A stretch of DNA of 64,000 nucleotides from Candidatus Schekmanbacteria bacterium. Its GTDB lineage: Bacteria; SZUA-182. The stretch spans positions 1,779 through 65,778 of the forward strand of contig JACRJN010000131.1 in the NCBI GenBank assembly GCA_016235675.1. Direction: 5' to 3'. A program made the translations under genes and the position numbers. Numbering within the stretch: position 1 is the first letter of the stretch; every line of letters starts with the position of its first letter. Shown here one piece after another: positions 11,890 through 12,087 of the stretch. The notes under the pieces are model-generated. The model saw nothing but the letters and a program-made list of their open reading frames with translations. It had not been told where the DNA came from and did not search any database.

Positions 11890-12087
11890 CACCACAAAGC
11901 ACACGAAGATCACGAAGAAAAAATAAATAGTTTAATTAAATATCATAAATAGTAGGGTGGGCTGCGCCCACCATTACCTCAAACTCATGAATATTCTTAA
12001 AATGGTGGGCGCAACCCACCCTACAAACTGCATTACCGTAAAAAAATAGCATTTGTAATTCTTCGTGTGCTTCGTGCGCTTCGTGGT
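11890..12087. repeat. composite element with CACGAAG-type outer inverted repeats (family F) enclosing a family-C REP
   Basis: F arms at 11890..11919 and 12058..12087 (inverted). Inner GTAGGGTGGGCTGCGCCCACC...GGTGGGCGCAACCCACCCTAC. Confidence 0.8.

What the first reader, a model, noticed from the sequence alone, without database searches (positions are those of the whole stretch)
11890..12087. Composite mosaic elements: a common CACGAAG-type outer inverted repeat wraps different inner REPs
Four loci (11890..12087, 31491..31701, 51376..51684, 53551..53973) share outer arms made of (CACGAAG/CCACGGAAG)n in inverted orientation. Their interiors are unrelated: a family-C REP, two K hairpins, several B REPs, and the G/C-rich L palindrome. 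Other outer-arm pairs behave the same way: GGCTTGAGG arms at 6796..6921, K arms at 60098..60400, TAGTTGCAAAA arms at 12858..12990, and D arms around N at 28245..28428. This nested architecture resembles BIMEs but is more modular. It suggests repeated insertion of one palindrome into the loop of another, since hairpin loops are single-stranded targets for HuH transposases.
Basis: seen in the sequence. Interest (0 to 1): 0.7.

Follow-up and report, generated by a model that had tools for sequence, protein, structure and literature searches.

The report
Gene-less shells of GxxExxY nuclease cassettes
The shared CACGAAG-type outer arms are the conserved inverted ends of a small cassette that, in many bacterial phyla, carries a 123-residue "GxxExxY" nuclease gene; the four copies in this window have lost the gene and now hold other small palindromic repeats instead.

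Summary
Four intergenic loci (11886-12092, 31487-31703, 51375-51684, 53550-53974) are bounded by 29-34-nt inverted arms. Each arm is three tandem 9-nt units (ACCACGAAG-NN-CACGAAG-NN-CACGAAG; locus 2 has CCACGGAAG). The interiors are unrelated to each other.

The arms are not a local REP family. The same arms occur in more than 119 genome stretches from many phyla. Protein-first sampling shows they are the terminal inverted repeats of the GxxExxY gene cassette (PF13366/TIGR04256, a minimal PD-(D/E)XK nuclease):
- 59 of 78 GxxExxY genes have such arms, against 1 of 56 shifted controls.
- The unit variant tracks the protein clade.
- The 7-mers are conserved (1.8 bits) and the 2-nt spacers are not (0.5 bits).
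- A filled and an empty fabD-fabG site, and a 172-bp internally deleted copy, show the cassette as a discrete insertion or deletion and show one route to ORF loss.

The window holds no GxxExxY gene or remnant, so its four copies are ORF-less shells. The REP elements inside three of them also occur naked elsewhere in the window.

The layered reading is partly supported. The HUH-transposase, loop-targeting mechanism is not supported for the outer arms. I found no published description of these arms. How the cassette moves is inferred, not shown.

The parts
11886..11919 (+). Locus 1, left arm: TTTTCACCACAAAG-CA-CACGAAG-AT-CACGAAGAA (three 9-nt units)
12059..12092 (-). Locus 1, right arm (reverse complement: CACCACGAAG-CG-CACGAAG-CA-CACGAAG). 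It ends 33 nt after the stop codon of the upstream minus-strand gene.
11952..12024 (.). Locus 1, inner REPIN: two inverted GTAGGGTGGGCTGCGCCCACC REPs (11952-11975 and 12001-12024), centred within 1 nt of the outer hairpin centre
   Evidence: I18, 96% complementary; naked copies at 4119-4165, 4651-4672 and 29225-29249
31487..31518 (+). Locus 2, left arm, variant unit: TTAACCACGGAAG-CCACGGAAG-CCACGGAAAA. It sits directly next to the Shine-Dalgarno sequence of the acyl-CoA ligase gene (start at 31474, minus strand).
31672..31703 (-). Locus 2, right arm. Its outer TTAA overlaps the stop codon of an 83-aa ACP-like ORF (31700-31951, minus strand).
31532..31658 (.). Locus 2, interior: two K-type G/C hairpins (31532-31573 and 31610-31658) in inverted orientation, REPIN-like
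   Evidence: 93-94% identical copies at 60352-60391 and 60099-60147
51375..51404 (+). Locus 3, left arm: ACCACGAAG-GC-CACAAAG-CA-CACGAAGAAA, 78 nt after the stop codon of the GGDEF gene
51655..51684 (-). Locus 3, right arm. It ends about 25 nt before the likely ATG (51709) of gspF.
51448..51620 (.). Locus 3, interior: several B-type REP hairpins (CGTAGTCCC...GGGACTACG heads) and a 17-nt tandem duplication at 51587-51620
   Evidence: (copies at 8276, 14445, 14582, 26970, 42620, 61452)
53550..53578 (+). Locus 4, left arm: TCACCACGAAG-AA-CACGAAG-GG-CACGAAG, 20 nt after the queH stop codon
53946..53974 (-). Locus 4, right arm. It ends about 24 nt before the likely ATG of the rnfC-like gene.
53579..53945 (.). 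Locus 4, interior: a 367-nt, multi-layer G/C-rich palindrome (core arms 53653-53688 and 53796-53831). No other copy is in the window.
   Evidence: I5; MFE -258.8, z -25.8
6788..6929 (.). Hairpin of the same architecture with AGGCTTG/CCTCAAG heptamer arms, filled with a D hairpin and a GTAG REP
   Evidence: (I9, I20, I23)
9223..9286 (.). Empty hairpin whose arms are GAGATAC-type heptamers (13-nt loop)
20294..20357 (.). Second empty GAGATAC-type heptamer hairpin (14-nt loop)
   Evidence: (I21)
42545..42603 (.). Empty GTTGTCA/AACTGAC heptamer hairpin, 4 nt upstream of the ATG at 42540 (minus strand)
   Evidence: (I22)
52935..52986 (.). Empty GTTGACG/AACTGAC heptamer hairpin, 19 nt upstream of the queH ATG (53006)
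28234..28429 (.). D REP pair (100% complementary arms) around the N element at 28274-28365. The same N element lies inside TAGTTGCAAAA arms at 12858-12990.
   Evidence: (I11, I14)

Best explanation
The four loci are ORF-less derivatives (shells) of a small cassette found across many bacterial phyla.

Shown:
- The full cassette is about 440 bp. It holds one 123-aa GxxExxY gene (PF13366/TIGR04256, a minimal PD-(D/E)XK nuclease with invariant D...ExK) packed tightly between two roughly 30-bp terminal inverted repeats.
- Each repeat is TT(C/A)ACC followed by about three tandem units, each a conserved 7-mer plus a free 2-nt spacer.
- The window's arms have the same sequence and architecture as these repeats.
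- The window holds no GxxExxY gene or remnant.
- ORF-less hairpins outnumber ORF-bearing ones by roughly 10 to 1 in pattern-first sampling.
- A 172-bp internally deleted copy shows one route to ORF loss.
- A congeneric filled/empty fabD-fabG site shows the cassette as a discrete insertion or deletion bounded by the arms.
- The cassettes and shells sit downstream of genes, mostly inside co-directional gene pairs, and leave the next gene's ribosome-binding site intact.

Inferred:
- The 7-mers are sequence-specific recognition sites, most likely for the cassette's own nuclease acting in cis or in trans. The cassette and its shells would spread as a selfish element without a target-site duplication.
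- In this genome other palindromic repeats (GTAG-type REP/REPINs and the K, B and L elements) later landed inside the shells. The shell interior is almost the only non-coding DNA left between the genes, and only insertions that spare the arms remain recognisable.
For: Arms in the window.

These give 83 inverted pairs with interiors of 11-374 nt.

The 374-nt interiors are exactly one GxxExxY ORF (TIGR04256 E=7e-45, PF13366 E=2e-43). Four more loci have the gene abutting an arm at a contig end.

Protein-first sampling:
- All three look-ups had the arms: Lacimicrobium alkaliphilum CP013650, a Desantisbacteria-type contig set, and a 2.4-Mb contig.
- 59 of 78 metagenome GxxExxY loci have flanking inverted arms, against 1 of 56 shifted controls.
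- Unit variants (CACGAAG, CACGGAG, CATGAAG, CACAGAG, CGCAGAG, CGCAAAG, CAGTGAGG, CACAGAT) change with protein identity.
- Cultured examples: Bacteroides finegoldii radA-[cassette], and Sphingomonas parapaucimobilis fabD-[cassette]-fabG.

Filled against empty fabD-fabG site. Deletion derivative that is polymorphic between samples.

Arm logo: 1.80 bits at unit positions against 0.49 bits at spacers, from 27 arms.

Top protein hits are 80-95% identical across phyla, and the family has 22,352 clusters at 50% identity. D67, E77 and K79 are invariant or nearly so. The model has pLDDT 96, and its best PDB matches are Cas4 and lambda exonuclease.

There is no GxxExxY trace in the window. Inner elements occur naked.

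Context: 23 tandem, 12 convergent, 1 divergent. The ORF is co-oriented with the upstream gene 24 to 6.
Against: - No experiment or direct comparison shows that GxxExxY cuts or moves the arms. A 123-aa protein has no obvious separate DNA-binding domain for reading a non-palindromic 7-mer.
- No target-site duplication of 3 bp or more was found, so this is not a classical cut-and-paste MITE.
- The co-variation of arms and protein could reflect shared descent of one unit and not recognition.
- The window shows no ORF remnant, so descent of these four copies from ORF-bearing cassettes (as opposed to trans-mobilised minimal hairpins) is inferred.
- No empty CACGAAG hairpin and no GxxExxY gene from the same genome could be examined. 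Only about 64 kb of a 65.9-kb contig is available.
- 19 of 78 GxxExxY loci lacked clear arms.
Confidence: 0.7

Rival explanations
1. The CACGAAG arms are one more REP-like palindrome, and the composites arise because HUH (RAYT or IS200/IS605-type) transposases insert one palindrome into the single-stranded loop of another.
For: Inner elements are independent and occur naked. The locus 1 inner element is a GTAG-headed REP doublet, which (from my own knowledge) is the form RAYTs mobilise. Inner REPINs are centred within 0-1 nt in loci 1 and 2 (coordinates). No target-site duplication is seen, as with single-strand transposition.
Against: The gene tied to the arms is a PD-(D/E)XK nuclease, not an HUH enzyme. 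The arms lack a GTAG head. Other nested cases are off-centre (28234-28429, 12858-12990, 6794-6922). Nesting is expected anyway because the arms enclose almost all of the intergenic DNA. No HUH gene was seen among the window ORFs I scanned, but that scan was partial.
Confidence: 0.25
2. An RNA-level element, like a 23S rRNA intervening sequence. The arms form a long double-stranded RNA stem in the host transcript, which RNase III cuts. This excises or insulates the insert, so the arms are kept by selection on RNA processing and not for DNA mobility.
For: The elements lie in transcribed intercistronic or 3' positions and avoid divergent regions. The ORF is co-oriented with the upstream gene 24 to 6. 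The stem of about 27-30 bp would suit RNase III. The Coxiella IVS has a 28-bp terminal inverted-repeat stem cut by RNase III, three tandem heptamers and a small ORF (PMC4990558). Spacers are purine opposite pyrimidine, so many mismatches are wobble-type.
Against: The sense strand shows no excess of G.U over A.C mismatches (112 to 93, p=0.21). The 7-mer sequence itself is conserved while spacers often do not pair, which points to sequence recognition and not only pairing. None of the fetched loci contains rRNA. This rival is not exclusive of the main explanation.
Confidence: 0.3
3. The hairpin is the primary mobile unit, a REP-like element, and the GxxExxY ORF is only one of many passengers that nest in its loop, as the REPs do in this window.
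For: ORF-less hairpins are about ten times more common than ORF-bearing ones in pattern-first sampling. Interiors are highly varied.
Against: The arms are a family-wide feature of GxxExxY genes, 59 of 78. The unit variant changes with protein clade. The ORF is packed tightly, with the start codon 0-25 nt after the inner unit and the stop codon 3-15 nt before the 3' arm. No other gene family was seen inside the arms.
Confidence: 0.12
4. The arms are operator sites of a host regulator, or intrinsic terminators, or a chance pattern.
For: They lie between genes. One search shows clustering of a short motif.
Against: Neighbouring genes share no functional theme. No U-tract follows the hairpins. The same arms occur in many phyla and bound a specific gene. 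Chance is excluded (0 of 100 shuffles).
Confidence: 0.03

Closest known systems
23S rRNA intervening sequences (IVS) with a small ORF (S23p, PF05635), for example in Coxiella and Leptospira
   Same: A roughly 28-bp terminal inverted-repeat stem, about three tandem short repeats next to the ORF start, one small ORF filling the interior, ORF-less versions, a selfish-element reading, and location inside a transcript (PMC4990558).
   Different: The host site is an intergenic region of protein operons, not 23S rRNA helices. The ORF is a PD-(D/E)XK GxxExxY nuclease, not the four-helix-bundle S23p/Avd-like protein. RNase III processing was not tested here.
MITEs (miniature inverted-repeat transposable elements) and their autonomous parents
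   Same: Short non-coding derivatives that keep the terminal inverted repeats of a gene-carrying parent, outnumber it, and carry varied interiors. Internal deletion was seen directly.
   Different: No target-site duplication. The parent gene is not a recognised transposase family. The inverted repeats are built of three tandem 9-nt units.
REP/REPIN elements with RAYT (HUH) transposases
   Same: Abundant intergenic palindromes, biased to the 3' side of genes, with no target-site duplication and a single associated gene flanked by the repeats. The inner elements of loci 1 and 2 look like true REPINs.
   Different: The arms have no GTAG head, are made of tandem units, and are associated with a PD-(D/E)XK gene instead of an HUH Y1 transposase.
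BIMEs of enterobacteria
   Same: Mosaic intergenic arrays built from several palindromic unit types.
   Different: BIMEs are linear alternations of REP orientations with fixed linker motifs. Here the architecture is concentric (nested) and the outer layer belongs to a gene cassette.
Tandem heptamer repeats of cyanobacteria (STRR) and TAACTGA repeats of Beggiatoaceae (PMC4679880)
   Same: Short tandem 7-9-mers in intergenic DNA, often a few nucleotides upstream of start codons, and shared across distant phyla. The window's AACTGAC arrays differ from TAACTGA by one base.
   Different: Those are described mostly as direct-repeat arrays without an inverted partner or an associated gene.

Membership tests
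GxxExxY cassette termini (defined here) | Outer end TT(C/A)ACC followed by about three tandem units of a C(A/G)C(A/G)(A/G)A(A/G)-type 7-mer, with 1-3-nt spacers, in inverted orientation | tested here: met
   The window arms match the consensus from protein-first loci position by position.
GxxExxY cassette termini (defined here) | A GxxExxY (PF13366/TIGR04256) ORF between the arms | tested here: not met
   A six-frame hmmsearch of the whole window with a family profile gave no hit better than E=1.4. The four copies are ORF-less.
GxxExxY cassette termini (defined here) | Position downstream of a gene, leaving the next gene's ribosome-binding site and start codon intact | tested here: met
   In the window, the arms end 10-25 nt before the downstream start codons and lie from 0 to 78 nt after the upstream stop codons. 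The Sphingomonas fabD-fabG site shows the same layout.
Classical MITE | Terminal inverted repeats and small size | tested here: met
Classical MITE | Target-site duplication flanking the inverted repeats | tested here: not met
   No direct repeat of 3 bp or more above control at offsets 0-5, in 73 elements. The test is crude.
Classical MITE | Parent element encoding a recognised transposase | tested here: not met
   The parent gene is a 123-aa PD-(D/E)XK nuclease of unknown activity. No transposase was found between arms in 119 loci.
REP/REPIN-RAYT | Conserved GTAG head and a single imperfect palindrome of 20-40 nt | tested here: not met
   The outer arms start TTCACC and are tandem units. The inner element of locus 1 does meet this feature (I18).
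REP/REPIN-RAYT | Associated HUH Y1 transposase (RAYT) | not tested
   Only some of the window ORFs were scanned. The complete genome is not available.
BIME | Alternating REP orientations separated by specific linker motifs | tested here: not met
   The architecture is nested, not alternating.
23S rRNA IVS | Insertion in 23S rRNA helix 9, 25 or 45 | tested here: not met
   The window copies lie between protein genes. No conserved rRNA motifs occur in any fetched locus.
23S rRNA IVS | Terminal stem cleaved by RNase III | not testable with these tools
   The stem forms in silico. A strand-specific wobble test was inconclusive.
Rfam RNA families | Match at the gathering score | tested here: not met
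   Only the tmRNA in the window reaches threshold. Permissive scans of locus 1 and of a compact element gave only generic hairpin hits far below threshold.

The most novel reading that the evidence does not exclude
GxxExxY genes, a very large family of unknown function (22,352 clusters at 50% identity), are the nuclease of a previously undescribed class of mini mobile elements. In this reading each is a roughly 440-bp cassette whose tandem-unit inverted ends are read by its own PD-(D/E)XK enzyme. It inserts without target duplication into intercistronic spacers of operons across bacterial phyla, and it spawns abundant ORF-less hairpins that then serve as nests for REPINs.
Probability: 0.4. Interest if true: 0.8.

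Novelty: new variant of a known kind. Interest (0 to 1): 0.7.

Why it matters
- It gives a genomic context, and a testable role, to a very large protein family annotated only as "GxxExxY protein / PD-(D/E)XK, function unknown".
- It explains a class of long intergenic hairpins, found in many uncultured phyla, as derivatives of that cassette.
- It links these hairpins by architecture to the old puzzle of rRNA intervening sequences and tandem heptamer repeats.
- It shows that such shells sit inside operons of essential genes (fabD-fabG here), where they could affect mRNA processing.
- For annotation, it warns that ORF callers extend genes into the arms and that assemblies break at these repeats.

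Tried and rejected
- Rfam: no family for the window or for the elements.
- Literature: searches for the arm sequences returned only primers. "GxxExxY", PF13366 and TIGR04256 gave only passing mentions. Elhai 2008, on small dispersed repeats in Nostoc, could not be fetched.
- A transposase between distant arms: none found, for example in L116.
- A GxxExxY remnant in the window: none.
- Intrinsic terminator: no U-tracts.
- RNA-strand test (G.U against A.C): no signal.
- Target-site duplication: none.
- rRNA context: none.
- Viral contigs: no GxxExxY relative of this clade.
- PDB by sequence: no hit. PHROGs: none. PADLOC: only a weak Cas4 match.
- Exact look-up of one window protein failed. The organism was then identified by a cluster look-up.
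- A plasmid search with a heptamer hairpin gave one weak Nostoc hit.
- Not done: a test of whether S23p/four-helix-bundle genes carry the window's heptamer arms. I had no seed sequence for that family.

Full report
**Observation.** Reading the four loci shows that each is bounded by inverted arms. Each arm is three tandem 9-nt units: ACCACGAAG-NN-CACGAAG-NN-CACGAAG on the left and its complement on the right. Locus 2 uses CCACGGAAG.

CACGAAG occurs 17 times in the window against 4.9 expected, and 0 of 100 shuffles reach 17. Sixteen of the 17 sit in three of the loci, in the expected orientation. The inverted-repeat scan gives arms of 29-34 nt at 83-94% complementarity. A fuzzy scan finds exactly eight arms, that is four elements, and nothing else of the kind. 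The interiors share no similarity with one another. All four elements fold with the outer arms paired, with z scores of -12 to -26.

**Source and setting.** Exact protein look-ups place the window on a 65.9-kb contig of a Candidatus Schekmanbacteria MAG. All four elements lie between co-directional genes:
- locus 1: a PASTA-domain gene and an unknown gene;
- locus 2: an ACP-like ORF and an acyl-CoA ligase gene;
- locus 3: a GGDEF gene and gspF;
- locus 4: queH and an rnfC-like gene.

Each element fills almost the whole spacer. It begins 0-78 nt after the upstream stop codon and ends 10-25 nt before the downstream start, leaving the ribosome-binding site intact.

**The arms are not local.** They come from Acidobacteriota, Desulfobacterota, Planctomycetota, Verrucomicrobiota, Chloroflexota, Gammaproteobacteria, Brocadiia, Binatia and others. 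Most hits are inverted pairs. I extracted 83 elements with interiors from 11 to 374 nt. Most apparent solo arrays have a degenerate partner arm. The consensus is TT(C/A)ACCACGAAG-RR-CACGAAG-RR-CACGAAG. The elements lie in tandem (23) or convergent (12) intergenic regions and almost never in divergent ones (1). Rfam has no matching family.

**The key link.** The two longest interiors (374 nt, L034 and L113) are each exactly one ORF, a GxxExxY protein (TIGR04256 E=7e-45; PF13366 PDDEXK_3 E=2e-43). Four more loci have the same gene abutting an arm at a contig end.

I then sampled from the protein side. The protein has more than 8000 close relatives, and the best are 80-95% identical although they come from different phyla. 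All three look-ups showed the gene wrapped by the arms: the complete Lacimicrobium alkaliphilum genome, a Desantisbacteria-type contig set, and a 2.4-Mb contig.

A metagenome scan with a diverse alignment returned 80 loci at 53-85% identity. Of 78 testable loci, 59 have flanking inverted arms, against 1 of 56 shifted controls. The unit changes with the protein clade: CACGAAG, CACGGAG, CATGAAG, CACAGAG, CGCAGAG, CGCAAAG, CAGTGAGG, CACAGAT. Cultured carriers show the same layout. In Bacteroides finegoldii the cassette, with CACAGAG arms, sits between radA and the next gene. In Sphingomonas parapaucimobilis it, with CGCGAAG arms, sits between fabD and fabG.

**Evidence that it is a discrete, movable unit.**
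- Sphingomonas paeninsulae has fabD and fabG separated by 32 nt. S. parapaucimobilis has the cassette of about 436 bp there, bounded by TTCAC...GTGAA, starting 6 nt after the fabD stop codon and ending 21 nt before the fabG ATG.
- Between samples of one population, a 172-bp copy is present or absent. It consists of the 5' arm, the first 33 nt and last roughly 48 nt of the ORF, and a truncated 3' arm. This is direct evidence of how ORF-less shells can form.
- ORF-less hairpins outnumber ORF-bearing ones by about ten to one in pattern-first sampling.
- The family is very large, with 22,352 clusters at 50% identity. An earlier survey lists it as of unknown function with multiple transfers (PMC3424549).

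**What constrains the arms.** In 27 arms that were not chosen by the pattern (protein-first loci plus the window), the ACC lead and the 7-mers carry 1.80 bits per position. The spacers carry 0.49 bits. Spacers are complementary in only about one third of pairs. Within the window the spacers of all six CACGAAG arms differ, while the 7-mers carry 2 changes in 126 positions. This points to sequence-specific recognition with a 9-nt period, not only to pairing.

On the sense strand, G.U and A.C mismatches are equally frequent (112 to 93, p=0.21), so I see no strand-specific RNA signal. No target-site duplication is detectable. The ORF is co-oriented with its upstream neighbour 24 to 6, which suggests it relies on read-through transcription.

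**The protein.** D67, E77 and K79 are invariant or nearly so. The AlphaFold model is confident (pLDDT 96.3). Its best PDB neighbours are Cas4 SSO0001 and lambda exonuclease, at E about 1e-3 and TM 0.58. PADLOC gives a weak Cas4 match, and no PDB entry matches by sequence. It is therefore a minimal nuclease of the Cas4/RecB-like branch. Its substrate is unknown.

**Back to the window.** A six-frame profile search finds no GxxExxY gene or remnant anywhere in the 64 kb, so the four copies are shells. Three of them hold independent repeat families that also occur naked elsewhere in the window:
- Locus 1 holds a REPIN of GTAG-headed REPs.
- Locus 2 holds a K-type doublet.
- Locus 3 holds several B REPs.
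- Locus 4 holds a multi-layer G/C palindrome seen only there.

The window also has hairpins of the same design with unrelated heptamer arms. Four are empty (9223-9286, 20294-20357, 42545-42603, 52935-52986) and one is filled (6788-6929). Their partner gene, if any, is unknown.

**Interpretation.** The layered reading holds. Inner and outer parts are separate units, and the outer arms occur empty, with a gene, or with other fillings. The proposed mechanism does not hold for the outer layer, because its partner is a PD-(D/E)XK gene and not an HUH transposase. Nesting needs no loop targeting, since the arms enclose nearly all of the spacer. Centring of the inner REPINs in loci 1 and 2 (0-1 nt off centre) is suggestive, but other nested cases are off-centre.

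My best account is that the four loci are gene-less derivatives of the GxxExxY cassette, later colonised by REP-type repeats. Movement of the cassette by its own nuclease is an inference. An IVS-like RNA role, with RNase III cutting the stem, is compatible with this account and untested. The Coxiella IVS, with its 28-bp inverted-repeat stem, three tandem heptamers and small ORF, is the closest described architecture (PMC4990558).

**Novelty.** Searches for the arm sequences and for the family names found no description of these termini. The held library is incomplete, and I recall, without being able to check, that database comments link GxxExxY proteins to rRNA intervening sequences. I rate this a new variant of known kinds (MITE-like or IVS-like). 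There is a fair chance that it is an undescribed class of nuclease-encoding mini-element.

Noticed in passing
window 42545-42603 and 52935-52986: Hairpins whose arms are tandem AACTGAC/GTTGTCA heptamers lie 4 nt and 19 nt upstream of start codons (ATG at 42540 on the minus strand; queH ATG at 53006). The unit differs by one base from the TAACTGA repeats reported just upstream of start codons in Beggiatoaceae, cyanobacteria and Bacteroidetes (PMC4679880). A plasmid search gave one weak Nostoc hit.
   Followed up: partly
window 55306-55379: Two adjacent tandem heptamer arrays (ACAATGG/ACAATTG x4.4, then TATCCAC x4.9) span the junction between the rnfC-like gene's stop codon and the next ORF's start. 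They are only partly complementary to each other.
   Followed up: no
window 62293-62660: A tmRNA gene (Rfam 194.9 bits) with the tag peptide ANYYGESQLALAA.
   Followed up: no
window 4119-4749: GTAGGGTGGGC REP copies in inverted orientation (4142-4165 and 4651-4674, 96% complementary) enclose a 102-aa ORF (4124-4432) with no Pfam hit. A Uma2-family endonuclease gene follows at 4772-5323.
   Followed up: partly
window 9064-9218 and 60170-60270: A 'cattgcgag...ctcgcaatg' palindrome occurs nested inside two different outer arm pairs (I7 arms at 9064-9096/9186-9218, and the K arms at 60099-60391). This is another case of the same inner unit in different wrappers.
   Followed up: partly
L049 6470-7800 (Vicinamibacterales MAG): At least eight CACGAAG-type hairpins stand head to tail with a period of about 155 bp, an array and not dispersed copies.
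   Followed up: no
proteins P0131-P0146: The top-scoring cluster representatives are 266-295-aa proteins with two GxxExxY domains. They may be tandem cassettes read through as one ORF, or true fusions.
   Followed up: no
L004 3994-4131, L024 4248-4384, L068 3395-3724: Arms of one unit type enclose a second hairpin with a related unit type (CGCAAAG or CACGGAG inside CACGAAG). Cassette-type hairpins therefore nest within each other.
   Followed up: no
window 63661-63779: A 54-bp tandem repeat, 2.2 copies, 89% matches. Not examined.
   Followed up: no
window 587-949, 7574-7942, 22077-22652, 46091-46531: Small genes typical of mobile or toxin modules: DUF5615/PIN-like, an RVT_3 (RNase H-like) domain, an AbiEii-type nucleotidyltransferase, and a PIN domain.
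   Followed up: no
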